64,000 nucleotides of DNA from Flaccisagitta enflata (lineage: Eukaryota): NCBI GenBank assembly GCA_965153355.1, contig OZ231126.1, positions 38,378,001 to 38,442,000 on the forward strand, written 5' to 3'. Shown here piece by piece: positions 1 through 36,085 of this stretch. The position numbers and the translations under genes were made by a program. Below the pieces are notes generated by a model. It had not been told where the DNA came from. It worked only from the letters and a program-made list of their open reading frames with translations, and made no database searches. Position 1 is the first letter of the stretch. Every line of letters starts with the position of its first letter.

Positions 1-10
1 TAATTATGCG

Positions 11-1158
11 ATGTACGAGCATACTTCAGATCCTGATGATTGGGAAAAAGTCCATAAAGGGTTGGAGGCGGCGTTGAAGGAAGCTGGTGTCATGGGTGTG
101 ACGGAGGATTTGGGAGCGTTAAGAGGCGTGGTGTTGCGTCATCTAGCCGCCGACGCATCCGGCAGAGGCGTGGTTAACGGCGACGATCTCTCATGGGACT
201 ACGCCGGCGTGCCTGATCCGACAGCAACGACTTCCGGCGCCCCTGATCCGGCAGCGACGGCTACCGGCGCTTCTCGACCGGCAGCAACGACTTCCGGCGC
301 TTCTCCTCCGACAGCTTTGGCGCTCGGCGTTCCACTTCCGCCCCCGCCGACGTCTCGCGTCCCACTTCCGGCTGCGGCGTCGACGGACGTTCATCCTCCA
401 TCCGCGGCTGCAGACGACGCTCTTCCTCCTGATCCGGCGTCGTCGGCGGCACGTGCATCGGCATCTCCATCGTCCAACGGATCTGTGGAAATGGACTCGT
501 TTAGCGATACATCTACTCTCTGTCCTACACCAGAACCAAGTGCGGCAGTCTCTACTTTCGATATTCCGGATTCACCCCATCCAACGCCATCTCAGTGTCG
601 TACCCCCACCCCACTTCGTCCCCCATCGCGCCCACTGATTTCCTTGAATTAACTCAAACTGCTGCGCGATGTAAATCATAAAAACATCTGATGATTGGCG
701 GCGAAAAATCGCTTGTGTGACCATCCCAGCAACCATCCATGAAGGTTTCACCTTACCTTATGGCGCCTGTTACTCGCGTCGACTTTGCCACGCATACGAC
801 TACGCCGGTAAGGGCACGTTCTCCGTCACCCTGCCGAAGAACTTCCTCCTCCGTGTCTCCCGTCTCCACGTCCTTCCCCGCATCCTCACTCATCCTCCTA
901 CTTCGCATCTTTCCAGCATCCTACTCTCCTACTGCTCCTCATCATGCTCCTCACTCTTCGCCTACTGCTCCTCATCATGCTCCTCTTCCTGCTCCAGCGG
1001 CGCCGATTTTGCCGCCGGTTGCTTCAGCGGCGCCGATTTGCCGCCGGTTGATCCAGCAGCGCCGACCACGACGCACGTCTATTGGCCCCATTCGCTCTCC
1101 ATGGCGCCACCGCCGCACATGCAACTCACGACGATTCTCCACCACCGGAACCGCGTAA
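11..1158 (+). other. Pro/Ser/Ala-rich low-complexity ORFs upstream of the gag core (probable disrupted N-terminal gag extension or extra 5' ORF)
   Basis: ORFs 11-652 and 739-1158 are GC-rich and disordered. They contain ~30-bp repeats (GxPDPxATxx, ~200-310) and 27-bp repeats (SPTAPHHAP, ~920-985). No recognisable domain. Confidence 0.4.
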
Positions 1159-2380
1159 GCCACGCCCTCCAGGCCTAATGGAAGTAGAGGGTGTTGAGCT
1201 TATCCATTCGGACGACGGACATGTTTGCGGCGGTCATCCTGAAACTCATTTGATAGCAAAATTACTGAAATTTGTCAAACCCGAGTTTAAGTCCCAGGAA
1301 AAGATTGATGTCTATTTGAAAAAAAGAAGGAATTAATGAATTGCTTCAAGGCTACTTTTCCATCTGAAACCCTTTACACTTTGGTCAACATCTTCACATT
1401 GCAATGTGATTCTGAGCTTTGTTCTTACATTGAAGAATTAACCGCAAAGAAAAGTTATTTCACTTCTTTTGAAATGTTCCTACGTGAGTTTGAGGAGCAA
1501 GTCTACCCAAATTCACGTCAAGCCGCCTACACGCGCTTTATCAACAGATCAACCCCATCTGATGCCAAAATCGCAGTGGCATGGAAGCAATTCAAAGAAG
1601 ATGCCAGGTTGGTTAATTTGGACCCACTTGAGCACAACATGCTTTTCATTAGGGTATTCGCCATCGTGAGAAGAAAAAGGCGCTTGCAAAAATGGTTATC
1701 CACTAAAGACATGGATGAAGTTTTAGAAGAAGCAGTCTCCTTGGAATCTACTAGTGATATGATGAAATTGTGGGACCAAGAAGAAAAGGAAGGGAAAAGT
1801 AAACAAAAATCAAATGCCAGCAACAATGCTAACATCAATGCCATTACTGCATCGGGGAATGGTAAAGCGGGTAAACAGCAACAACAGCAAGGTCAACAGC
1901 AGCAGCAGCAACAACATCAGCAGCAAAATCAGCAAAATCAGCAGCAGCAGGACCAGTTGACTAAATCTCAAAGAAATAATCAAAAGAGGAAGGAGCAACT
2001 GAAGCTTGGCAAGCAGATGCAGAAACAGATGCAGGAGCAACAACAGCAGCAGCAGCAGCAACAGCAGCAGCGCCCTGCAGCAGCAGGGAGGTGGTAGGGG
2101 TGGAGGAAGAGGAGGAAGAGCGATTAGGGGTAGTGGAGGTGGAGGTGGAAGAGGAGGTGGAAATGCTGGTGGTGGTGGTGGTGGCAAGGATGGTGGTGTG
2201 ACTGTAGCAGCAAATGAAGTGCAGGAAGCAGCTACTAAGCAAAAACAATCAAACCAACCTGTTTCATCTGGATGGACGGGCCACTCTAGCCCAAAATTGA
2301 ATCTTCCGACCACTTTTATCTGCCATGTCCACCAATTCACAAACAACTTGATTCCACCGAACGAAGCTTTGAATAAATGA
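1082..2380 (+). pseudogene. gag: gag (capsid-like core, poly-Q, RGG-rich C-terminus), split over three frames
   Basis: Segments 1082-1336, 1336-2097 and 2006-2380 join across an A-run (~1320) and a CAG repeat (~2080). FTSFEMFLREFEEQVYP resembles retrotransposon capsid helices. RGG boxes follow the poly-Q. Lies immediately upstream of the protease. Confidence 0.7.
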
Positions 2381-5300
2381 CGACGTTCAAATCTCCACGC
2401 CCAATCTGCAAAATTTAAAGTGGAGACAATTTCTAATTCAGAGGAGGTGGGTGAGGTGGTGGTGACAGAGGAGGAGGAGGGGGGAGAGAAGGTGGGGGTG
2501 GACAATTCTAACTCTAATCATCACTCGTCATCTAATTGCCCGACTTTGAACATTTCATCTTCAACAAAAATTGGTGGAAAAAAATACTTTGTCACGGCCT
2601 GTTTGCCTAACTCTAAGCTTTTTACCGCGTTCTGTGACTCTGGGGCTGACGTCAGCGCGGTCAGTCCTAAGATGGTGACTGGTTTACCTTTGAGTTGGAG
2701 GAGCCGTTGGTGGTGAAGGGCTTCGATGGAAATCGCACCACAGCTATCACCCACAAAGTTGAACTCGAATTGAACTTTCACCCTGGGGGGTTGAAAGATT
2801 ACTTCTATGTTTGCGACGTTCCCCACGCTATTATTGGAAACGACATTCTCCAAAATGATGAGCACCATCTATCGCTGGAAACAGGAAAAAAGTTCTTTCA
2901 TATTGGCAGTGACATTATTTTTACCAAATCTTCGCCATTTTTGTCCATTTCTGAATACAAACGTCGGCGTCTCTCATCGGTTTCTAGCTACAGGAGAGCA
3001 TATAAACACCACTGTCATGGTCGAAATTGGGTTAGACTACTCCAGGATTACCGTCTTGAGCCAAATTCAATCACTATAGTGGAGGGGTATGTGGATAATT
3101 ACTTCGCTGACTCGCAAAGTTTCTTAAGTCTTTATGATGGCTCATATCTGAATGCGGCTGACTGTGGTCACATTTACATACCATCTCTTTCCTTCCCAGA
3201 TGGTAGGGAAAAGGCTTCAAATGGTCATGACACCCCGCTATTGATCCCTGTTGCAAATAATCTGACTGAGGCCAAAACTATGTCAACGTTGACTATCTTA
3301 GGTGAAATGGTTCGTCACTCAACTGATTCACAGCAACATGATGCCGAGTGTTATGATTTGAGGGAGTTGTTGGAGGAAATAGAAAGGAGGGAGCTGGTGT
3401 CTGGTGAAGATATGACCTGTAGATATGGTATCACATCCCCTTATGATGTATGCAATATTGACACTGATGAATTTTCAAATGTAAATAACCCTACCACTCC
3501 TACCAACCAACCCAACCAACCTACCACTCCTACCAACCATCCCAACCAACCTACTACCCTACCAACCAACCAAAATTTCACTCCCGCGTTTTCGTCCGAC
3601 ATTGATCATCCTCAATACACCCCTCCCTCCTCACCTGTGCCATTTTCATCACTTGTTGGGAAGAATAAGGTGGGTGATGATGTTCTCGACCGTTGCCGCC
3701 GGGATGGTATAGACTTTGACTTGCAATTGGATGACAAAAATGGACCCGATGTTGAAATGGAGATTCTTGAAGATATCGACATTGAGGCTGAAAGGAAAAA
3801 AGCAGATGATTGTCCTTACTGGAAAGATAAAGATTCTTTTTTTTCTGAATTCAACTTCAAAGATTTGGCCCAAGAGCATTTGGACCCACTCAAAGAACTT
3901 CTATTTTCGTTCCGTCACATTTTTGACTCTTCTGACCCTGCCCAATTCAGGCAGGGGATAAACATGAAACCAATCGAGATAAAGTTGAAACCTGGCATGA
4001 CCCCTAAAAAGCACAAACTTAGGCGTCTCTCGGATGAGAAAATTCGTCACCTCAAAATTCACCTTAAAACGCTTCTCGATCAAGGCGTCATCGCCGAATT
4101 GGACAGCAGCGCCGACGTCTACGCAAGTCCTTTGCATCTTGTCGTCGAACAAAGGTTCGTCAGTTCGCGCAACGCCGTGGTGGAAAAAAGTAGGGTAACT
4201 GCAGACCAGCGCCAATTGAATGCTTGTCTGGCTGACAGCTCCTTTCCGCTTCCAAACTGCAATGAATACCGTGAAAAAGTAGGAAAAATGGGTTACACCA
4301 CCTTTAGTAATTTCGATTGCTCGTCCTTCTTCCACCAGTTTCCGGTCTCAAAGGAAAGTTCTAAGTTGTTAGGCATTCACGCAATTAATAAGATCTATTG
4401 TTACCTTCGCTTATCTCAAGGCCTAAAACTCAGCCCACCTATTGTCCAAAATTTCATCAGCAAGGCCATGCGCTGTCATGAGCGCGTCTTTCCGTTCATT
4501 GATGACTGTTCAGTTGCTTCAGAGAATGTTCAACAGCATCTCTATGAAGATCTTCCCAAATTCTTCGCCCTCTGTTCCTACTATCGGATACTTCTTAAAC
4601 CTAGTAAGGCTGATATGGTCAGGAAATCGACTAGAGTCTTAGGGTTTCAAATTGGTGAATCTCAATTGTCAATATCCAAGGAAAAAGAGGTGAAAATTTC
4701 AGATCTTAAATTCCCGGTCACAAAAGATGAGTGTATCGCTCGCCTAGCCTTTCTGCAATACTTTAATGGCGTGGCGCCAAAGCTCAGTGAGCATTTAGCG
4801 CCATTACGCCGTTTGACTAAGTTAAAGGTAAGGTACACGCCCACTGACTTACACAGGGAGGCTTTTAACAAGGCCATAACTCACCTGCAAGATAAGAAAG
4901 TGAATGTCATTTGTCTTCCGTCTTCTGACCCTTCAGACCAGTTCGTGCTGTGGACAGATGCATCGTCAAATTCAATATCGTGTTTATTGACGCAATATAT
5001 GCTTCCTCCATCGTCTGCACCTGATAATGATGGAAAAAGAAGATTGTATGTGGTAGGGTGTTTTTCTTCAGTCATCAAGGACAGCTGGCTTAATTTTCCA
5101 ATATGGCTGCTCGAGTTGATCAGTCTTTACGAAGCTACTCGCAAATTCCGCCATCTGCTCAGTGCAAAAGCTTTTTGGGTGGTCGTTGATAGCTCTACAG
5201 TGGCTAACTGGGCCAGTCTTGAGGGTATCCCCAAAGACTTGGCCCGTAAGATCCTACACATACAGAAATTTCAGGCTAATATCGTCTTTGTTGAAAGTAG

Positions 5301-7285
5301 ATTGCAAGCTGCAGATCCATTCTCACGCTTAGAATCACTCCCAGCACCATCAGGCACTTACCCAAAATTTTTGAGGGAAAGGATCTACAACGCCCATGGA
5401 CAGAAGGTGCCTTGGCAATCACTCTTTTCCCAACGAAAACACGATGAAATGATCGCCTTTTTTCATCGCCATCGGAGACAGCCGTTATCATACGCCGTCG
5501 ACGGACCGTTGGAAGAGGAGGAGGAGGAGGAGGAGGAGGATGATTATGCTTCTAGACCCGACGGCGAATACACCATTGTCGTCGACGATCTTCCGGCGAC
5601 GCCGCCGGAAGTGACGCCCATCGCCGGCGCCATCGCGGCGATCCACACGTCGATTTGCGCCATATCTCTCGACGACGACAATTTGAATGCTGGAAGAGTG
5701 GAGGAGAATGATGATTCCCTGCCGGATAGTGACGTCATGGACAGTATCAAACTGCCGCGTTTTTCCGGAAGTCGATTGGATTTCGTGCGTCGCCTTCAAG
5801 CCGGCGACGATATTCTTGATCGTTGCCGAGACTTTTTGATGGGAACGACGCCGCTTCCAAACAAGGCTGAGGCTTTGTTATTACCGGCGCCGTTGCAAGA
5901 TTTCCTTCGCCATCGTTCGCTTTTCAAACTGACAGACCAAAACATTTTGATCAGATATTGGTTAAATCCGTTGGGCATCGTTGACCCACTTATTGTGGTG
6001 GGATCTAGAGAATTTTTGAAGCTTGTCGGCGAAACTCATTCATTCAACTCACCATCATCATCCGGTCACATTGGTCAAAGAAAAACCATGGATTCTCTCA
6101 AAAGACAGTACTATTCTTTCAACATGAGGCGGGTGATCAATTCTTACGTCCGTTCATGTCCCCAATGTGTGTTAAACAACCATCCCACCTGTAGGAAGGA
6201 AGACGATGGCAACAAAATCGCGACTGAGCCTTTATCGACCGTTGAAGTGGACGTGTGTGGCCCGTGGAACAATTTCAAGACCACTTCCGGCCGAACGCCA
6301 TCATACTTTGTCGCAATTGACGCGGCGTCTCGATTTGCGTTCACGTCAACGATATATTCGACCTCTGACGCCGAAATTCTTCGTTGTTTTCTCGATATGC
6401 GTCGCCACTTCTCCGGACTACCTTCAAAAATACAATGCGATAACGGGTTGCTGAAAGAAAACTCACGCACAAAACAATTTCTGATTTCGCATCACGTTTC
6501 GATCACACATGGACACGCGTACGTCAGCAGATCACAGTCCCGTGCTGAAAAAACTATCGGCACTATTTCTCGTCTCATCGTCAAATACAGAACCGAGTGT
6601 CCAAAAATTCCTTTTCCCCGTCTGTTAGAGGAATCCACGCTCACCTATAACGCATCTCCATGTGACGCTCTCCCCATGAATCTTTCCCCACGTGATCTCT
6701 TCTATGTGCGTCCTCCAACTTCGTTTCTTCGTTCTGCATCCGACGAGGTCGTCGACGGCGTCTCCAAATCGCTCGTCGACTGCGTCGCTGCTGCACGTGC
6801 CGCCGGCGCCGCGTCTCTCCAAAACGACGTGGCGACAGAAGAAACGATCTCCGACGAACTACACGCGCCGCCTCAAAAGCGGTGATTGCGTCTTAAAGAA
6901 ACGCTCTGTGTGGCCTGTCGGGACGCCGAAGAAATACGGCCACAGAGTGGTTGTGGACGGATTTGTGGTGGAAGAACGAGTCGCCACAAATGCCTTTAAG
7001 GTTCGAAGTGTCGTGACGAGTGAACATCAAATTCTCCCAGGTGACGTGTTGATCAAAACTAAACTCACTGAAGATGAGTTACGTCGCCTCGCGGACTCAA
7101 TGAATGTAAGTTTGGAACTGAGTGAGCCAGAGATTGAGCCAGCTTTAACGCGTTCTCGTGCCAGGGCATTGAATGATGATGCCTCGGTGAATTCCGTCGA
7201 AAAACTTTTCATCCATCATAGTGGAAAAAACAATTATAGTCTCGATTCACTTGTTGATTTTGGAATCTCTGATTTGTGGGTTTAG
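2381..7285 (+). pseudogene. pol: pol polyprotein: aspartic protease, degenerate dUTPase-like segment, reverse transcriptase, RNase H, integrase with SH3-like C-terminal domain
   Basis: PR FCDSGADVSAV...IIGNDIL (frameshift ~2693). RT YASPLHLV, FSNFDCSSFFHQ, LSQGLKLSP, FIDD. RNase H WTDAS/LLEL/VVVD/AADPFSR. IN H..GHIG..CPQC and VDVCGP/CDNG/SRAEKT. The C-terminus continues in ORF 6692-7285 after a frameshift near 6835. Confidence 0.92.
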
Positions 7286-7438
7286 TCTATTTTTCCATAT
7301 GATGATCAATTTTGAGTTTATAGGAAAGATGATTTTTTTATTTTTTTTGTTTTTTTGTATTTTTTTTAAGAAGTACAAAGTAGAAAGAAAATGAATAACC
7401 ATGATCATTTTACCATAAACTCGGATTACCCCTTAAAT

Positions 7439-7822
7439 TTAGATCCACACACTTCTTGCGGGCGCATCGTAGTGACCATTGTTATTTTGATCACGTTCAC
7501 GCATCTCTATAATTTCATCATCTGTAAAATTACGCGGAACACCATTACGGGGTGGTGGTAGTGGTGGGGTGCCGTTGCCTCTGTTCCTAACTCTTTCTCG
7601 CATCATTGAGAGAAAATCTTGACTTAGTCTCAGCAGGCGTTGAGCTAAGTCAGGATTTTTTATCCCAATGATGGCAAGAACGATTATTAGGACAAGGGCC
7701 CCGGCACTAATCAGCACTTCCTCCAACCAGTAAGGGTGCCCTGGGCTATAATGGGCCTGCTCAATTGTAGCATTCTCGGTCGCTGAGGGAGAATGGTTCC
7801 AATAACTCTCATTATAGCTCAT
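7439..7822 (-). CDS. Antisense 127-aa single-pass membrane protein inside the retrotransposon (FAST-like architecture)
   Basis: AAAATG start. ~35-aa N-terminus with sequons NES, NHS and NAT. TM VLISAGALVLIIVLAIIGI, then amphipathic/basic PDLAQRLLRLSQDFLSMMRERVRNR and PPLPPPR. Minus-strand AATAAA at 7342-7337. Confidence 0.7.
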   Translation of the reverse strand: MSYNESYWNHSPSATENATIEQAHYSPGHPYWLEEVLISAGALVLIIVLAIIGIKNPDLAQRLLRLSQDFLSMMRERVRNRGNGTPPLPPPRNGVPRNFTDDEIIEMRERDQNNNGHYDAPARSVWI

Positions 7823-8456
7823 TTTGCACGTGATTTTACAGACAAGTGTGCAGATATAAATTATCTATAGACGGAACAGCGACCACCTACCTTTAAATTT
7901 CTAAAAGAAAAGATTTTTAAACACTCAAACCCCCAAGAGAAACGAAACAAAAGGTGGAAACTAAAATGTTAAAAATGATAAAAACTTGCTTTTGCTGTAA
8001 AGAAATGATTAATCGAGTTATGTCATGTACAGAATTTTTTTATTTGCGATAATTCATTATACGCGGGTACAGTCTCACAAAAACTCTATCTGACTGTATC
8101 TACAATTTAATTGCCTTCTGTCTAAGTGTCTCGGTCTTTCACAAACAATTTTCATGACTGGGACGCTTTATTGTACATATTCGTTAGTAACGAGTCTCTT
8201 ATTCGCGGTGATTCGTTATATCAGTTTCTCACTGTATTCTAGTTTTTCTCTTTTTGACGTTCTTAATGTTGCCCTCACTCACTATGTGTCTGTTATGAAG
8301 CGCGCGCCGATCCTTTTTCTCTCCACTCCTCGGTTGTCCAATTTCGTTATCAGCGCGCCTTTTGTTTCCATCTGATGCATCCGATCCTGATCCTTATTGC
8401 GCAAAACGTCGATTTTGCGCCCATTTTGCGCATAAGTCGCGGGCCTTTTGTTTCCG

Positions 8457-8573
8457 TCAAACTCGATTCCTCCCATCGTCTCGATCGTCGTCGTTGTTTC
8501 TGTCGCGTCGAGGGCCTGGGAATAAAATGTAGTACACATTTTTTTTGAGCGGTGGTCGCTGGATATTTGCGTT

Positions 8574-8632
<59 letters not shown>

Positions 8633-9770
8633 TCTTTCTCTCTTTCTCTCCCTCTCTTCCTCTCTTCTCAATTTTTGGTTGAATTTTCAACGCTTTCTCT
8701 AAATATTATCCATTTTAGTCTCTCCATTTTCTCACGAATTTTAAAAATATTAACTACTGTTTCCCGGCCGGAAATATTTACTCATGTTCTATTTTGTCAA
8801 TGACAAAAATATTATTCTGCACACCTTTTTTTTTCCAAAAATATTACTCAAAAATATTAACCGTATTCACAAATATTATACTATAGTTACATCCGGATTC
8901 CCTTTCTGCGCAATTTTACCCCTCTTTCTCCCCCTCTCTCCCCCCACTCTGCTTTGCGGAAGTCAAAAATCAAGAAAGGGTGCGTTCTTTCGCCTCTGAC
9001 ACGTTCACACTGAGTTCACTTACTGACATAATGGTAGACTTTATGTCGGTTTTCTTCTTCTTCTTCTCTTTCCTTCGAGGTCGCTTGTTTCTTGCATCGT
9101 AATAGTCCTTGGATAATAACCGCCACAACGTTGGTGATAGTGATGCCGATGACGGCCCATGATTGGGTCTCCAGCTCATCTGTCTGTTCGTTGATTTGGT
9201 TATACTCCTTTCCGCACATTAGAGGTGACAGGACCAGATCGCTCCTCTCGAGGCATCGTGAGATGTGGAGCACGTCTTTTCCATTTTTGCCTTTGATGGG
9301 GCTAGGACTGATGATGATGAGACACGTTTTGCCATACTCTGTTGGTAGAGAAGATACAAAAAAAATTAAATTAAATTTCAGAAGTTAGTGTGAACGTTGT
9401 CGCTCCCCTCGGTGACTGTGGCGCCGATCAGATTAAATAATGCATAAAATTTTCTCACCGTATCCAAAATCGCGTATGACGGCTTGTTTCGAATCAAGTT
9501 GGCAATCGGGCTTTTCTGGACGCGTGCTCAACCATTGCACGATGCGTTGATTGAAATCGCCGTTGCTTTCTCCGTCTCGTTGTTGCGGGGTCTGTGAACA
9601 AAATTTTTGCGTTGGCCTTGAATTTTCTTCTTTTCAGCGAAGAAGGAAAGTTAGGGTAGGGTTAGATCACGAATCTGCTGAATTGGTTTTCTCACCTCTG
9701 ATTGGTCCGCTACGCTCCCCGGGAGGAGGAGGACGGAAAGAATGAAGAAGAGGAGGGGGTGATATCTCAT
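8457..9770 (-). CDS. Spliced antisense gene in the retrotransposon: ~193-aa type I membrane protein (signal peptide, 4-Cys ectodomain, TM, charged tail)
   Basis: Exons 9770-9696, 9591-9459, 9338-9024 and 8515-8457. Donors GTGAG, GTGAG, GTAAGT; acceptors ttttgttcacAG, ctaccaacAG, ttttattcccAG. Phases 0/1/1 are all compatible (582 nt). Protein MRYHPLLFFILSVLLLPGSVA...SWAVIGITITNVVAVIIQGLLRCKK...RNRV*. Minus-strand AATAAA at 8172-8167. Confidence 0.75.
9744..9759 (+). promoter_or_regulatory. Polypurine tract (plus-strand primer)
   Basis: GAAGAAGAGGAGGGGG immediately 5' of the TG that starts the LTR. Confidence 0.85.
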
Positions 9771-10218
9771 TTTCACGATTTGTCTGTTGTTCTCTTGTCT
9801 TCCACTCGAGGTGATTGTAACTTGTTTGTCAGTATCTCGTCAGTATCTTGTCAGTACTTGTCACTTTCACTACCACAACACGCACTTTGTTGATTTGAGT
9901 GGTCGAGGTGTTGAGGAGAGGTGAAGTGTTGATTTTTGCTTTCGGAGCGCAGAGTCCAATTTCTTGTACAGAATTTTGCGATTATGATTTTGATTTTGTC
10001 CTTTAACTTTCCGTCGGCGATTGTTATTGTTTTTCATAATGCGGAATGATTGTACTTCAATTTTCGGCGTGCCTCGAATGAAATGAATGACAGTGAATGT
10101 TTGAATCACGTGTTCCTTCGATTGAATGGTATGTTGAGAATTGTGTTCTTATGTTAAGTATGTTTGAATGAATGGTGGTTTTTCATCTCCGTAACACCTG
10201 GAGATTTTCCACATATCA
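9760..10218 (+). repeat. 3' LTR (right boundary tentative)
   Basis: TGATAT...ATATCA 6-bp terminal inverted repeat after the PPT. Three ~11-bp TCAGTA(T)CT(C/T)G repeats at ~9829-9860. A plus-strand AATAAA at 10491 means the LTR could instead extend to ~10571 (..GATCA). The 5' LTR is not in the window to confirm. Confidence 0.65.
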
Positions 10219-10626
10219 AAATTTTTTGATTTTTTTTTAGTTCCGTTCTTTTCTAAATTTTTCTAAGAATTTAGTTTTTAAACGTAACAATATTAGTCGA
10301 GGTCCGAGCTTTTTGTTTTCTAGACATTATCTTCACCTATCCTAAATAGATTGAGGATGATCTCTAGATAGCGTTGGCCGAGTCATGAACCGCTCGGTTC
10401 TGACCTTTGATATTATTATTATTATCAAATTCTCTCTGCCTCTCGCTTTTTGCATTGCTCGACTGCGATCCAATTTTCTCTTCAGTCTGGAATAAAGCCT
10501 CTTTCTTTTAGCTCAATTTCTTTCTCTTTCTCTCTCAATTAATGATAATTAAGAAGCTCAGAAATTGATCAAGGACAGATCTTTAGCCAGGACGGATGAT
10601 CATCATCCGGATGATCATTCGTTACT

Positions 10627-12665
10627 GCATGGTAACATGGACTTGCATAGCATGACGGCGATCATGGCGACATCGTGGATCGTGCTGTGGGGTTTTGCAT
10701 TTCACGACCGACCTCCTGACGGCATTCTGTTACGTGATTTTATTCGCCGGACAACTTGGCCATCTTTTTGCCGTTTCTGGTTGCGCTGTAGTTTTGGGTT
10801 ATGTATGTTGCTTGTGTTTCCACTGTGTTTGTGGTATTGCTTTTTCATAATTTCCGTCCGTCGTTGATGATTACGTTACTTTTATGCGTTAATAGGTTGG
10901 TTGGGTAAAAGGGTGGTTTTGTTTTTTTCACGTCATGCTGCCGTCGTCGTTCGCTATCATTTTCCCTGCATTAGCCTGCGTTCGTGCCCTTGCATGGGTC
11001 CATTTTTTTTTGCCCCCCCCCCCTGGTTTTCGTTCTTACATGCGGTTGTGCTAATAGTATTTTGGGTTAGTGGCCACTTTGGCGTGTGTTATTTATTCCC
11101 CCCTCCCCACCCTGGCCGCTTTGTGATGGATTTTTGTCTGATATTGTTGGATTGATTTCTCTCAACTGATGGCCCATGTGGTGCGCGCGCCTCGGGTCCC
11201 TGCTTTTGTTTCTTACCTGGGGACATGGGTTTGGATGTGTTTATCCATTTAGGCTTTAGGTTAGTTTTAGCTGACTACACACACAAACGGGATTGATGAC
11301 TAAAGTCCAGCCTGTATTTGCCTGGCCCAGTGCCAAACCACACGGGCAAGGACTCATAGCGAACACTGCTTACACGCATACCGTTAGCCGGGGGTTTGGA
11401 TCTCAGTCAGCTTGGTGCGTTTGCTCTGCACATCTCGCCATATCACTGAGGGGCTCAGGTTTAGGTTTAGGCTTCGATTTTTGGAGGTTTAGACGCCGAG
11501 GACGTCGTCTTCGTGAGAGGGGGAGTAACTGTGGTACGGGGACCTCTGCCTCGGGCTAGCTCACTGCTACGTTTTCTATGTTTTTCTTTCTTTTAACGTG
11601 GCATCATCTTCCATTTGCCCAGGGCTTGCTATCGTGAACATGCGTTCAACATCACAAATGGGCGTGCTAACATGGACGCGCATTACGTGGCCTCTTCCTT
11701 GAGCATGGTAACCTGGACTTGCATAGCATGACGGCGATCATGGCGACATCGTGGATCGTGCTGTGGGGTTTCGCAATTCACGACCGACCTCCTTACGGCA
11801 TTCTGTTACGTGATTTTATTCGCCGGACAACTTGGCCATCTTTTTGCCGTTTCTGGTTGCGCTGTAGTTTTGGGTTATGTATGTTGCTTGTGTGCCTACA
11901 AGCTTATCACACTGTTTCCACTGTGTTTGTGGTATTGCTTTTTCATAATTTCCGTCCGTCGTTGATGATTACGTTACTTTTGTGCGTTAATAGGTTGGTT
12001 GGGTAAAAGGGTGGTTTTGTTTTTTTCACGTCATGCTGCCGTCGTCGTTCGCTATCATTTTCCCTGCATTAGCCTGCGTTCGTGCCCTTGCATGGGTCCA
12101 TTTTTTTTTGCCCCCCCCCTGGTTTTTGTTCTTACATGCGGTTGTGCTAATAGTATTTTGGGTTAGTGGCCACCTTGGCGTGTGTTATTTATTCCCCCCT
12201 CCCCACCCTGGCCGCTTTGTGATGGATTTTTGTCTGATATTGTTGGATTGATTTCTCTCAACTGATGGCCCATGTGGTGCGCGCGCCTGGGGTCCCTGCT
12301 TTTGTTTCTTACCTGGGGACATGGGTTTGGATGTGTTTATCCATTTAGGCTTTAGGTTAGTTTTAGCTGACTACACACACAAACGGGATTGATGACTAGA
12401 GTCCAGCCTGTATTTGCCTGGCCCAGTGCCAAACCACACGGGCAAGGACTCATAGCGAACACTGCTTACACGCATACTGTTAGCCGGGGGTTTGGATCTG
12501 TCAGCTTGGTGCGTTTGCTCTGCACATCTCGCCATATCACTGAGGGGCTCAGGTTTAGGTTTAGGCTTAGATTTTTGGAGGTTTAGACGCCGAGGACGTC
12601 GTCTTCGTGAGAGGGGGAGTAACTGTGGTACGGGGACCTCTGCCTCGGGCTAGCTCACTGCTACG
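10627..12665. repeat. Near-identical ~950-bp direct duplication (10627-11571 and 11703-12665)
   Basis: The two copies align along their length with few substitutions. Copy 2 has a ~20-bp extra segment near 11894. Confidence 0.95.

Positions 12666-21820: not shown

Positions 21821-36085
<14,265 letters not shown>

What the first reader, a model, noticed from the sequence alone, without database searches (positions are those of the whole stretch)
9696..9770. Polypurine tract does double duty as signal-peptide coding sequence; start codon lies inside the LTR end
Seen: the antisense ATG is the CAT at LTR positions 9-11 (TGATATCTCAT). The LTR terminus and the complement of the PPT read R-Y-H-P-L-L-F-F, the start of the signal peptide's hydrophobic core. 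Inference: purine tracts read antisense give Leu/Phe codons, so replication cis-signals were overprinted to make a signal peptide. This ties the gene to the element rather than to the host, and implies an antisense promoter and 5' UTR in U3. The 5' LTR would carry the same ATG pointing into flanking host DNA.
Basis: partly seen in the sequence, partly recalled or inferred. Interest (0 to 1): 0.8.

Follow-up and report, generated by a model that had tools for sequence, protein, structure and literature searches.

The report
Antisense membrane gene starting inside LTR
A jumping-gene copy from a marine animal seems to carry a backwards-facing gene for a small membrane protein, whose first coding piece overlaps the element's own replication signal and the edge of its terminal repeat; this is a neat example of overlapping signals, but no RNA evidence yet shows the gene is used.

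Summary
Read on the minus strand, CAT at 9768-9770 gives MRYHPLLFFILSVLLLPGSVADQSE, followed by GTGAGA. The hydrophobic core is the complement of a purine run (9721-9759) that abuts TG at 9760.

The setting is a Ty3/gypsy-type element with a decayed pol. Its 3' LTR is about 9760-10628. The right end is fixed by a sharp loss of homology to a flanking tandem repeat. The left end rests on the purine run plus TG and on contig breaks in two runs.

The antisense gene is probably real:
- Exon 3 (9338-9016) has 12 ENA homologues (66-98% identity) that keep the frame.
- The part upstream of its only Met is the best conserved, so a spliced start is needed.
- The proposed two-intron path to the LTR ATG is the best of 49 GT-AG paths.
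- 266 nt upstream of that ATG hold no ATG (6 of 5000 shuffles match this).

A second antisense ORF (7822-7439) is conserved down to 34% identity, and a relative with 42% Pol identity has a similar ORF.

Still unproven are the 5' LTR (outside the window), splicing, and an antisense start site. One polyA run gave one read, and a metatranscriptome contig is unspliced.

The parts
1336..2097 (+). gag-like ORF (253 aa, Q-rich); no Pfam match
2462..7282 (+). pol (protease region, RT, RNase H, integrase). In this copy it is read in three frames relative to the uninterrupted 1615-aa relative P0001, with frame changes near 2690 and in 6833-6912
   Evidence: Pfam RVT_1 2e-14, RT_RNaseH 1.7e-11, Integrase_H2C2 1.7e-12; tblastn of P0001 and P0002
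7439..7822 (-). second antisense ORF 'as2' (127 aa plus stop). It has an N-terminal stretch with N-x-S/T sequons, one TM helix, a basic helix, and PPLPPPR / RNxTDDEIIEM motifs
   Evidence: 5 homologues at 34-97% identity. Cluster of 44 members, with 14 of the 15 listed at 127 aa. L001 counterpart: hhalign E 3.2e-5, probability 73%. AF2 model has helices 31-55, 57-82 and 102-114, mean pLDDT 55.8
9016..9338 (-). proposed exon 3 of antisense gene 'asTM1' (EYGKTC...KVYHYVSK plus TGA). It covers the rest of the ectodomain with 3 Cys, the TM segment WAVIGITITNVVAVIIQGLL, and the tail RCKK..EEEEE..YHYV
   Evidence: 12 homologues at 66-98% identity keep the frame. P0102 keeps it up to the acceptor. 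No indel shown among copies inside it
9339..9458 (-). proposed intron 2 (GTGAGA ... T-rich tract ... CAACAG)
   Evidence: Site scores. 2-nt and 3-nt deletions at 9358 and substitutions at 9376 and 9384 in other copies
9459..9591 (-). proposed exon 2 (133 nt, TPQQRDG...IRDFGY plus 1 base). It has one Cys and no ATG in frame, and converts phase 0 to the phase 1 that exon 3 needs
   Evidence: The only variant shown in it, 9475, is synonymous (ATA>ATT Ile)
9592..9695 (-). proposed intron 1 (GTGAGA ... TTGTTCACAG)
9696..9770 (-). proposed exon 1 (the finding): ATG plus 24 codons, signal-peptide-like (n: MRYH; h: PLLFFILSVLLL; c: PGSVA)
   Evidence: Kyte-Doolittle 9-mer maximum 3.19. Donor GAG|GTGAGA has the best donor score on the minus strand between 10700 and 9600
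9698..9705 (+). CTGATTGG (inverted CCAAT / Y-box) inside exon 1, 16 nt before the purine run. The same 8-mer lies 15 nt before a GGAGGA run in L001
9721..9759 (+). polypurine tract candidate (37 of 39 purines; the last 16 uninterrupted)
9760..10628 (+). 3' LTR (about 869 bp, TG...CA); right end known to within 3 nt
   Evidence: Left end: purine run plus TG. Contigs of runs X1 and X9 end at 9742 / 9733 and restart at 9763 / 9764. Right end: homology to the downstream tandem unit begins sharply at 10626. AATAAA at 10491
9771..10036 (-). ATG-free stretch upstream of the proposed start codon; candidate antisense 5' UTR and start-site zone in U3
   Evidence: 0 ATG in 266 nt. 6 of 5000 dinucleotide shuffles have none, and 22 of 5000 whole-LTR shuffles have an equally long ATG-free tail
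10626..12665 (+). flanking tandem duplication (unit about 1076 bp, 96% identity) into which the element is inserted

Best explanation
The window holds a slightly decayed copy of a Ty3/gypsy-type LTR retrotransposon from a marine animal. Between pol and the 3' LTR, on the opposite strand, it carries two genes for small single-pass membrane proteins.

The upstream gene (asTM1) is most likely a three-exon gene, and the steps below are inferred. Transcription starts on the minus strand inside U3 of the 3' LTR, somewhere in 9771-10036. Translation starts at the ATG 9770-9768, which is 9-11 nt inside the LTR. Exon 1 (9770-9696) runs across the LTR edge and the complement of the polypurine tract and encodes a cleavable signal peptide. 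Two GT-AG introns (9695-9592 and 9458-9339) are removed, giving a 176-codon type I membrane protein. This protein has an ectodomain of about 105 aa with 4 Cys, one TM helix, and a basic juxtamembrane tail with an acidic cluster and YHYV.

Because the introns are antisense to the genomic RNA, they survive retrotransposition. The same 39 nt therefore serve as the plus-strand primer site on the sense RNA and as Leu/Phe codons on the antisense mRNA.

Shown: the sequence features, the element context, the conservation of exon 3 and of the second ORF, the frame logic and the LTR right end. Inferred: PPT function, the LTR left end, splicing, the start site, signal-peptide cleavage and protein function.
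For: 1. Element context. RT, RNase H and integrase are found on the + strand. A 98% identical 1615-aa Pol and seven relatives at 40-45% identity are found.

2. LTR. There is a purine run plus TG at 9760. The shown contigs of two runs stop and restart within 3-4 nt of 9760, and no shown contig bridges it. The right end is fixed by a sharp homology breakpoint at 10626, with AATAAA 135 nt before it.

3. Exon 3 is coding. 12 of 15 candidates are homologues at 66-98% identity, all in frame, with in-frame length changes only in the E-run and a shared C-terminus KVYHYV. In the most diverged cluster (P0038, P0102), the 46 residues upstream of the only Met are about 87% identical versus about 56% downstream. 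The frame stays open up to TEYGKTC, which is exactly the proposed acceptor. There is no ATG upstream in that ORF, so a spliced start is needed.

4. Splice path. The proposed path is the best of 49 GT-AG paths from the ATG. 26 of 2000 shuffles reach its mean site score and 15 of 2000 have donors as good. Only 2 of 17 minus-strand ATGs between 10700 and 9768 have an in-phase donor, and the other gives MQKARGRENLIIIIISK.

5. Leader. The 266 nt upstream hold no ATG (6 of 5000 shuffles), and there is an A at -3.

6. Variation among copies. The indels shown fall outside exons 1-3, including 2- and 3-nt deletions in intron 2. 1 of the 40 shown substitutions lies in the 528 nt of exons 1-3, and it is synonymous. 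31 lie in the 2812 nt outside all four ORF parts.

7. Topology is coherent. The N-terminus has n/h/c regions, the ectodomain has an even number of Cys only if exon 2 is included, and RCKK follows the TM. The topology rules applied here are recalled, not computed.
Against: - No RNA support. One polyA RNA run of organism A (about 6% of its reads were read) laid 1 read on 6900-10620. The metatranscriptome contig 9323-9733 crosses both proposed introns unspliced, and no joint at the proposed sites was listed.
- The 5' LTR is not in the window, so the LTR start, the TSD and conservation of the CAT are untested.
- No homologue of the exon 1 ORF was found, and exon 2 has no independent conservation evidence.
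- The hydrophobic core is what a purine tract must give in 1 of 3 antisense frames.
- In L001, the only distant relative reaching this region, the equivalent ATG opens only 13 codons (MLRFLLQNPSANQ). Three further ATGs lie within 190 nt upstream. The shared CCAATCAG sits in a different frame, which points to a DNA-level signal rather than coding.
- No asTM1 homologue was detected in L001.
- My splice scores are a crude hand-made matrix, and the thresholds were set after seeing the data.
- Only 40 of 134 substitutions and 12 of 31 indels were shown.
- The homologues come from ORF callers, so broken copies are under-represented.
Confidence: 0.5

Rival explanations
1. Exon 1 is a by-product of composition. 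Reading a purine tract backwards gives Leu/Phe/Ser/Pro, and an ATG happens to lie in frame. Under this view the real antisense product starts elsewhere. It could be the 67-aa MCGKEY... protein (short acidic N-terminus, TM, basic tail, the same architecture as as2). Alternatively it could be made from an mRNA driven by an internal CCAAT-box promoter just inside the PPT, or from another first exon such as the ATG at 10455.
For: - Most database ORFs start at MCGKEY; that cluster has 39 members, and 14 of the 15 listed are 67 aa.
- The short form is a coherent N-out/C-in protein like as2.
- CTGATTGG is conserved at the DNA level between the window and L001, in different reading frames.
- Only 1 of 3 frames is needed for hydrophobicity.
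- No spliced RNA was seen.
- A second in-phase first exon exists.
Against: - The 46 residues upstream of MCGKEY are better conserved than those downstream, and the frame stays open to the acceptor in the 67%-identity cluster.
- ORF callers pick the first ATG/GTG/TTG by rule, so their starts say nothing about the true start.
- In an unspliced or internally started mRNA, MCGKEY would be preceded by several out-of-frame ATGs, as read.
- The ATG-free 266-nt leader and the top-ranking splice path would then be coincidences.
Confidence: 0.27
2. asTM1 is not a functional gene at all. Its ORF is open in many copies only because the copies are young, and the apparent exon structure is chance. Only as2 is a real accessory gene.
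For: - 10 of the 12 exon 3 homologues are 78-98% identical.
- Nothing below 66% identity was found, whereas as2 reaches 34%.
- L001 has no detectable asTM1.
- The element copy itself is decayed.
- There is no Pfam or Atlas lead.
Against: - The 67%-identity cluster keeps a 106-codon frame, with a 3-codon in-frame deletion and mostly conservative changes (I/V, S/T, K/R, D/E).
- Among the differences shown, frame-breaking indels occur in flanking and intron sequence but none in exons.
- The word-based search cannot reach distant relatives of a 106-aa query.
Confidence: 0.13
3. 9760 is not the LTR start. Under this view the purine run is one of the many purine-rich stretches of this genome, and the repeat boundary lies elsewhere, so no cis-signal is overlapped.
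For: - No 5' LTR is available.
- The window is full of (GA)n runs.
- Contigs restart at 9763 / 9764 rather than exactly 9760, and could break because of variation in the G-run.
- The terminal inverted repeat is only TG/CA.
Against: - It is the only such purine run within 1-9759, and it ends exactly at a TG.
- An insertion end lies 869 bp downstream, at a sharp breakpoint in a host tandem repeat ending ...CA.
- A sense AATAAA is in the expected place.
- L001 shows the same Y-box / purine-run / CATTTT(C)AC order.
Confidence: 0.1

Closest known systems
HTLV-1 HBZ, spliced SP1 isoform (PMC1459196; abstract and passages read)
   Same: An antisense transcript initiates in the 3' LTR. Its first exon lies in the LTR and carries the AUG used for translation, and it is spliced to an internal exon between pol/env and the 3' LTR.
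   Different: HBZ is from a deltaretrovirus of mammals. Its starts are in R/U5 and its exon 1 contributes only a few residues of a nuclear bZIP protein. In the passages I read there is no overlap with the polypurine tract and no signal peptide. Here the ATG is at the outer edge of U3, the exon crosses the LTR/PPT junction, and the product is a membrane protein.
Antisense additional ORFs of plant and fungal Ty3/gypsy elements: Grande gene23, RIRE2, Retand TRP28, Boty (PMC7264820 and PMC11963269; passages read)
   Same: These are conserved ORFs between pol and the 3' LTR on the strand opposite gag-pol. They are present in most copies and lack cellular homologues. Grande uses its own upstream promoter.
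   Different: Those are plant or fungal elements with nuclear or DNA-binding products. The word 'intron' occurs 0 times in either paper, and no overlap with the PPT or LTR is described in the passages seen. Here the host is a marine animal, the gene is intron-bearing, and the products are membrane proteins.
sORF2/FAST-like small transmembrane proteins of insect MDG1-group Ty3/gypsy elements (PMC11952523, preprint; abstract and passages read)
   Same: These are env-less Ty3/gypsy elements encoding short single-pass N-out/C-in membrane proteins with a basic patch and an amphipathic helix after the TM. The as2 ORF and the short form of asTM1 have this layout.
   Different: All reported candidates are in the forward orientation, and most carry an N-myristoylation motif MGxxxS/T. 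Here the ORFs are antisense, as2 starts MSYNES with N-x-S/T sequons, and asTM1 would use a signal peptide. No sequence similarity was tested or found.
Oikopleura Tor elements with env (PMC4402516; passages read)
   Same: This is a marine-animal Ty3/gypsy element with an extra membrane-glycoprotein gene after pol, sometimes expressed from a promoter other than the 5' LTR.
   Different: Tor env is large, sense-oriented, and expressed by splicing of the genomic RNA or from an internal sense promoter. No relationship to this element was tested.
Sense-strand coding over the 3' PPT and U3 in HIV-1 nef, and the HIV-1 antisense protein ASP (recalled; only the search listing of PMC2099442 was seen)
   Same: A replication signal lies inside a coding sequence (nef), and a hydrophobic antisense product is driven from the 3' LTR (ASP).
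   Different: The nef overlap is on the sense strand, and ASP does not start in the LTR or overlap the PPT. Both statements rest on recall.

Membership tests
Ty3/gypsy (Metaviridae) LTR retrotransposon | pol with RT, then RNase H, then integrase, in that order | tested here: met
   Pfam RVT_1 at 308-458, RT_RNaseH at 550-664, Integrase_H2C2 at 927-968, and rve at 984-1081 (rve scores below its curated cut-off). The same order is found in P0001.
Ty3/gypsy (Metaviridae) LTR retrotransposon | two long terminal direct repeats | not testable with these tools
   Only the 3' repeat lies in the window, and no genome is held.
Ty3/gypsy (Metaviridae) LTR retrotransposon | polypurine tract abutting a 3' LTR that starts TG and ends CA | tested here: met
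   Purine run 9721-9759 followed by TG at 9760. ...CTGCA ends at 10628, at the homology breakpoint. PPT function itself is inferred.
Ty3/gypsy (Metaviridae) LTR retrotransposon | primer-binding site and target-site duplication | not testable with these tools
   The 5' end of the element lies outside the window.
Antisense accessory gene of a retroelement (aORF-3R / HBZ type) | ORF between pol and the 3' LTR on the opposite strand, conserved across copies and related elements | tested here: met
   as2: 34-97% identity in 5 clusters, plus L001 with the same orientation relative to pol. asTM1 exon 3: 66-98% identity in 12 proteins.
Antisense accessory gene of a retroelement (aORF-3R / HBZ type) | antisense transcript, spliced in the HBZ type, starting in the 3' LTR | tested here: inconclusive
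   The polyA run X24 laid 1 read. The X9 contig is unspliced across both introns, and contigs cannot show strand or starts. The only positive evidence is indirect: the splice path and the ATG-free leader.
Cleavable secretory signal peptide | basic n-region, hydrophobic h-region of 7-15 residues, c-region with small residues at -3 and -1 | tested here: met
   MRYH / PLLFFILSVLLL / PGSVA, followed by DQSE. Kyte-Doolittle 9-mer maximum is 3.19. This was judged by inspection against recalled rules; no trained predictor was available.
Cleavable secretory signal peptide | translocation and cleavage | not testable with these tools
   This needs expression of the cDNA.
sORF2/FAST-like small fusogens | short protein, single TM, N-out/C-in, polybasic and amphipathic region after the TM | tested here: inconclusive
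   The as2 model has a TM helix at 31-55 directly followed by helix 57-82 (RLLRLSQDFLSMMRERVRNR), but mean pLDDT is 55.8. Conserved N-terminal sequons suggest a luminal N-terminus. Topology is inferred.
sORF2/FAST-like small fusogens | N-terminal myristoylation motif MGxxxS/T and forward orientation (as reported in PMC11952523) | tested here: not met
   as2 starts MS-YNE / MF-SNE, and both ORFs are antisense to pol.

The most novel reading that the evidence does not exclude
A lineage of marine-animal Ty3/gypsy elements has replaced a sense env with an antisense, intron-protected cassette of two small membrane proteins expressed from the 3' LTR. The LTR-edge/PPT exon would be a built-in signal-peptide leader. 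It could even be shared, because exon 1 ends in phase 0 and the acceptor-like ...CTATAG at 7865 opens the as2 frame in phase 0. The proteins would act like FAST/sORF2-type factors for cell-to-cell spread of capsids. On this reading the PPT, the LTR end recognised by integrase and a signal peptide are co-encoded in about 50 nt, so replication and expression constrain each other.
Probability: 0.15. Interest if true: 0.8.

Novelty: new variant of a known kind. Interest (0 to 1): 0.55.

Why it matters
If the gene model holds, it would be the first case I could find of an antisense retroelement gene whose start codon sits at the outer edge of U3 and whose signal peptide is the complement of the polypurine tract. 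The searches found no description of one. The model extends the HBZ-type design (an LTR-borne first exon) to an animal LTR retrotransposon, and it shows antisense introns being carried through retrotransposition. It also adds antisense-encoded small membrane proteins to the recent idea that env-less Ty3/gypsy elements use short transmembrane proteins to move between cells. The model is directly testable with strand-specific RNA data and a census of genomic copies. If it fails, what remains is still a previously unnamed element family with one well-conserved antisense membrane-protein ORF (as2).

Tried and rejected
- **5' LTR and second copies in the window:** none found. One search was swamped by a microsatellite.
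- **Whole genome:** not held.
- **Earlier notes of this scan:** nothing found by place, sequence or words.
- **Other DNA copies:**
  - Viral contigs with the Pol alignment: 0 of 37 pattern matches were confirmed.
  - Viral contigs with the exon 3 alignment: 0 of 67 were confirmed.
  - The as2 alignment was too variable to search with.
  - Genome contigs with a 24-nt LTR pattern: 0 matches.
  - Genome contigs with the Pol alignment: 0 of 49 were confirmed.
  - Metagenome contigs: 1 locus, L001, which stops about 190 nt past its purine run.
- **Protein search with the exon 1 ORF:** no candidate. A first attempt with 39 aa was too short.
- **RNA evidence:** no verdict.
  - X24 laid 1 read.
  - The X9 contig 9323-9733 is unspliced.
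  - No start or end clusters were listed.
  - In X9 the depth over as2 (187 and 72, against 10-30 nearby) is not matched in the DNA run X1. This is only a hint, because contig depth is a poor measure of expression.
- **Pfam:** nothing for gag, ORF 2-652, as2, exon 2, exon 3, P0102 or P0051 above chance.
- **ESM Atlas:** as2's best score was 0.87, with Flu_M2 at 0.85, so these are leads only. Exon 3 gave no usable hit.
- **hhalign of the exon 3 alignment against the L001 ORF 4193-4399:** probability 0.3%.
- **Fusion of exon 3 to as2 through the GTAAGT just before the stop:** phases do not match, and read-through copies (P0041, P0091) are not conserved beyond the stop.
- **Sense ORF 9143-9388 as the cause of conservation:** rejected, because 2-nt deletions at 9358 in other copies would break it.
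- **Short 43-nt version of intron 2 (acceptor CCACAG at about 9416):** it runs into a stop after 13 codons.
Full report
**What is in the window**

Positions 1 to about 10628 belong to one copy of a Ty3/gypsy-type LTR retrotransposon on the + strand.
- A gag-like ORF lies at 1336-2097.
- A pol with RT, RNase H and integrase follows it.
- The closest protein is P0001, a 1615-aa uninterrupted Pol at 98% identity in a cluster of 71 members.
- Seven more Pol proteins are 40-45% identical, and everything else is at most 27% identical.
- Against P0001, the window's pol is read in three frames, with frame changes near 2690 and within 6833-6912. This copy is therefore decayed.

No genome is held for the window. 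Public runs that hold parts of 7300-10500 are marine metagenomes, marine metatranscriptomes and an unnamed 'organism A'. Word depth in the thousands in the organism A DNA run shows the stretch is repeated there many times. The rest of the window has a non-LTR RT ORF and many microsatellites. It is therefore a repeat-rich animal genome.

**The observation**

- The + strand reads a purine run at 9721-9759, with 37 of 39 purines and the last 16 uninterrupted. TGATATCTCAT follows from 9760.
- On the minus strand, the CAT at 9768-9770 is an ATG.
- The frame reads MRYHPLLFFILSVLLLPGSVADQSE and ends at 9696 before GTGAGA.
- The purine run is the only one of its kind inside 1-9759.
- Only one of the three antisense frames over it is hydrophobic; the others are Pro/Ser-rich.

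The Leu/Phe core is therefore partly forced by composition. The in-frame ATG, the PGSVA c-region and the donor are not.

**Is 9760 an LTR start?**

The 5' LTR is not in the window. The start sequence occurs only once, and BLAST of 9501-12500 finds only a downstream tandem duplication. Three indirect lines support an LTR of about 869 bp (9760-10628).
- The purine run abuts TG.
- In two independent runs, the shown contigs end at 9742 / 9733 and new ones begin at 9763 / 9764, and no shown contig bridges the junction. That is what a repeat boundary does to a de Bruijn assembly, although variation in the G-run could have the same effect.
- The right end is well defined. The sequence from 10626 (GCATGGTAAC...) is 96% identical to a second unit starting at 11701-11703, while the 65 nt before it are unrelated. 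An insertion ending ...CTGCA therefore sits in a host tandem repeat. A sense AATAAA lies at 10491.

**The antisense gene**

*Exon 3.* Exon 3 (9338-9016) is the best supported part.
- A search with its translation found 12 proteins among 15 candidates, at 66-98% identity.
- All 12 keep the frame. Length changes occur only in the Glu run and only in whole codons.
- The TM segment and the C-terminal KVYHYV are invariant. Ten of the 12 end at the same K, one (P0038) runs four residues past it, and one (P0041) reads through the stop.
- Two members of the most diverged cluster extend upstream of the only Met. P0102 reads MTEYGKTCLIVISPSPVKDK..., so it stays in frame up to exactly the proposed acceptor.
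- The 46 residues upstream of the Met are about 87% identical to the window, with I/V changes. The 66 residues downstream are about 56% identical.
- That ORF has no ATG upstream of the Met, so the conserved ectodomain needs a start supplied by splicing.

*Exons 2 and 1.* Exon 3 must be entered in phase 1. Exon 1 (75 nt) ends in phase 0, and the 133-nt exon 2 (9591-9459) is open in the right frame and converts phase 0 to phase 1.
- Both donors read GTGAGA, and the second acceptor follows a long T-rich tract.
- Of 49 possible GT-AG paths from the ATG into exon 3, this path has the best sites by a simple scoring scheme of my own.
- When 9363-9695 is shuffled, 366 of 2000 shuffles give some path with all sites at least as good as the weakest observed site. 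Only 26 of 2000 reach the observed mean site score, and 15 of 2000 have donors as good.
- Of the 17 minus-strand ATGs between 10700 and 9768, only two have an in-phase donor. The other encodes MQKARGRENLIIIIISK.
- The 266 nt upstream of the ATG (9771-10036) contain no ATG. Only 6 of 5000 dinucleotide shuffles of that stretch have none, and 22 of 5000 whole-LTR shuffles have an equally long ATG-free tail. That is what a scanned 5' UTR looks like.

*Variation among copies.* The differences between copies shown fit this model.
- Frame-breaking indels lie at 7433, 7907, 8351, 8458, 8683, 8718, 8742 and, inside intron 2, at 9358 (2 nt). A 3-nt deletion at 9358 occurs in other copies.
- The indels shown inside the antisense ORFs come to a single 3-nt deletion in as2.
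- One of the 40 shown substitutions falls in the 528 nt of exons 1-3, and it is synonymous. Thirty-one fall in the 2812 nt outside the four ORF parts.
- Only 40 of 134 substitutions and 12 of 31 indels were displayed, so these counts are indicative only.

*The product.* The product would be a 176-codon type I membrane protein made of:
- a signal peptide;
- an ectodomain with four Cys (one in exon 2 and three in exon 3);
- one TM helix;
- a tail with RCKK, an acidic cluster and YHYV, which fits the YxxΦ pattern (recalled).

**What speaks against it**

- There is no RNA evidence. The one polyA RNA run of organism A that I could lay gave a single read on 3.7 kb, with about 6% of the run read.
- A metatranscriptome contig covers 9323-9733 without either intron removed, and no joints at the proposed sites were listed. 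Contigs cannot show strand and they drop rare forms. This is therefore no verdict rather than a refutation.
- No homologue of the exon 1 frame was found, and exon 2 has no independent conservation test.
- L001 is the only related DNA I could fetch (Pol 42% identical).
  - It shares the order CTGATTGG, 15-16 nt, GGAGGA-type purine run, CATTTT(C)AC.
  - Its antisense ATG opens only 13 codons, and three more ATGs lie within 190 nt upstream.
  - The shared CCAATCAG sits in a different reading frame. That motif therefore looks like a DNA-level signal, possibly an inverted CCAAT box (recalled), rather than conserved coding.
- No asTM1 counterpart was detected in L001.

**The second antisense ORF**

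as2 (7822-7439, 127 aa) is the firmest gene here.
- A full HMMER scan of 1.84 billion representatives found five relatives at 97, 50, 63, 37 and 34% identity.
- They share a start (M-S/F-x-N-E/D-S/T), N-terminal sequons, one TM segment, a PPxLPPR motif and RNxTDDE-IIEM.
- Its own cluster has 44 members, and 14 of the 15 listed are 127 aa.
- L001 has a matching ORF on the strand opposite pol (hhalign E 3.2e-5, probability 73%).
- The AF2 model is poor (mean pLDDT 55.8) but shows a TM helix followed directly by a second helix.

The family as a whole therefore carries antisense membrane-protein genes.

**How it most likely works**

My confidence in this model is about 0.5.
1. An antisense promoter in U3 of the 3' LTR starts transcription within 9771-10036.
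2. The first AUG is the one at the LTR edge.
3. Exon 1 crosses the LTR end and the complement of the PPT and supplies the signal peptide.
4. Two introns are removed. Being antisense to the genomic RNA, they are copied faithfully at each retrotransposition.

The main rival (about 0.27) is that exon 1 is a compositional accident. The product would then start elsewhere, for example at the 67-aa MCGKEY form or on an mRNA from an internal CCAAT-type promoter. The lesser rivals are that asTM1 is not functional (about 0.13) and that 9760 is not the LTR start (about 0.1).

**Comparison with what is known**

- Antisense ORFs between pol and the 3' LTR are well described in plant and fungal Ty3/gypsy elements (PMC7264820 and PMC11963269; passages read). 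Those encode nuclear or DNA-binding proteins, and neither paper mentions introns.
- An LTR-borne first exon with the AUG, spliced to an internal exon, is established for HTLV-1 HBZ SP1 (PMC1459196; passages read). There the starts are in R/U5 and the product is a bZIP factor.
- Small single-pass membrane proteins in env-less insect Ty3/gypsy elements (sORF2, FAST-like) were recently proposed to mediate cell-to-cell transfer (PMC11952523; passages read). All of them are in the forward orientation and most carry a myristoylation motif, which as2 lacks.
- Tor env of Oikopleura is sense-oriented (PMC4402516; passages read).
- Searches for an antisense signal peptide over a PPT found nothing relevant.

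**Verdict**

This is a new variant of a known kind. It combines antisense accessory genes in an animal LTR retrotransposon, an intron-bearing gene, and a probable start codon and signal peptide laid over the LTR edge and the PPT. I score interest at 0.55. The design is elegant and testable, and it touches a current question: how env-less elements reach new cells. However, the key step, use of exon 1, rests on computation alone.

Noticed in passing
window 7439-7822 (-): as2 is a 127-aa single-pass membrane-protein ORF, antisense to pol. It is conserved down to 34% identity in metagenomic relatives and in L001, and its layout resembles FAST/sORF2-type proteins. In the metatranscriptome run X9 its depth (187 and 72) stands out from neighbouring bins (10-30), which is not the case in the DNA run X1.
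   Followed up: partly
window 9698-9705 and L001 about 4666-4673 (+ strand CTGATTGG): An inverted CCAAT / Y-box 8-mer sits 15-16 nt before the purine run in both the window and a relative with 42% Pol identity, in different antisense reading frames. L001 has a second CCAATCAG about 100 nt further in. It may be a conserved promoter or replication signal.
   Followed up: partly
window about 2690 and 6833-6912 (+): The window's pol changes frame twice relative to the uninterrupted 1615-aa relative P0001. The second change is also seen against P0002. This copy is therefore not intact.
   Followed up: partly
window 10626-12665: A tandem duplication (unit about 1076 bp, 96% identity) begins exactly where the LTR ends, so the element appears to be inserted into a host tandem repeat. 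The first bases of the flank are TGGTAAC.
   Followed up: partly
window 9829-9869 (+): Three to four head-to-tail copies of GTCAGTATCT-like decamers lie in U3, about 70 nt inside the LTR. They may be a repeated factor-binding site.
   Followed up: no
window 8572-8676: A (TC)n/(GA)n microsatellite lies inside the element between the two antisense ORFs. The surrounding 8254-8825 shows frame-breaking indels among copies, and the ORF 8539-8282 (-) is not preserved.
   Followed up: partly
window 2-652 and 739-1158 (+): Pro/Ala/Ser/Thr-rich ORFs lie upstream of gag, and the first runs off the window start. They have no Pfam match, and it is unknown whether they belong to the element's leader.
   Followed up: no
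window 29119-31518 (+): A 799-codon open frame with a reverse-transcriptase domain (RVT_1, E 1.1e-28), probably a non-LTR retrotransposon. Long (GA)n, (CA)n and other microsatellites lie at 15-19 kb, 22-23.7 kb, 39.2-39.7 kb and elsewhere.
   Followed up: partly
window 7865-7823 (-): The stop TAG that opens the as2 frame is also an acceptor-like ...CTATAG, and exon 1 of asTM1 ends in phase 0. An exon 1-to-as2 splice would therefore be in frame. This is purely a frame observation with no supporting evidence.
   Followed up: no
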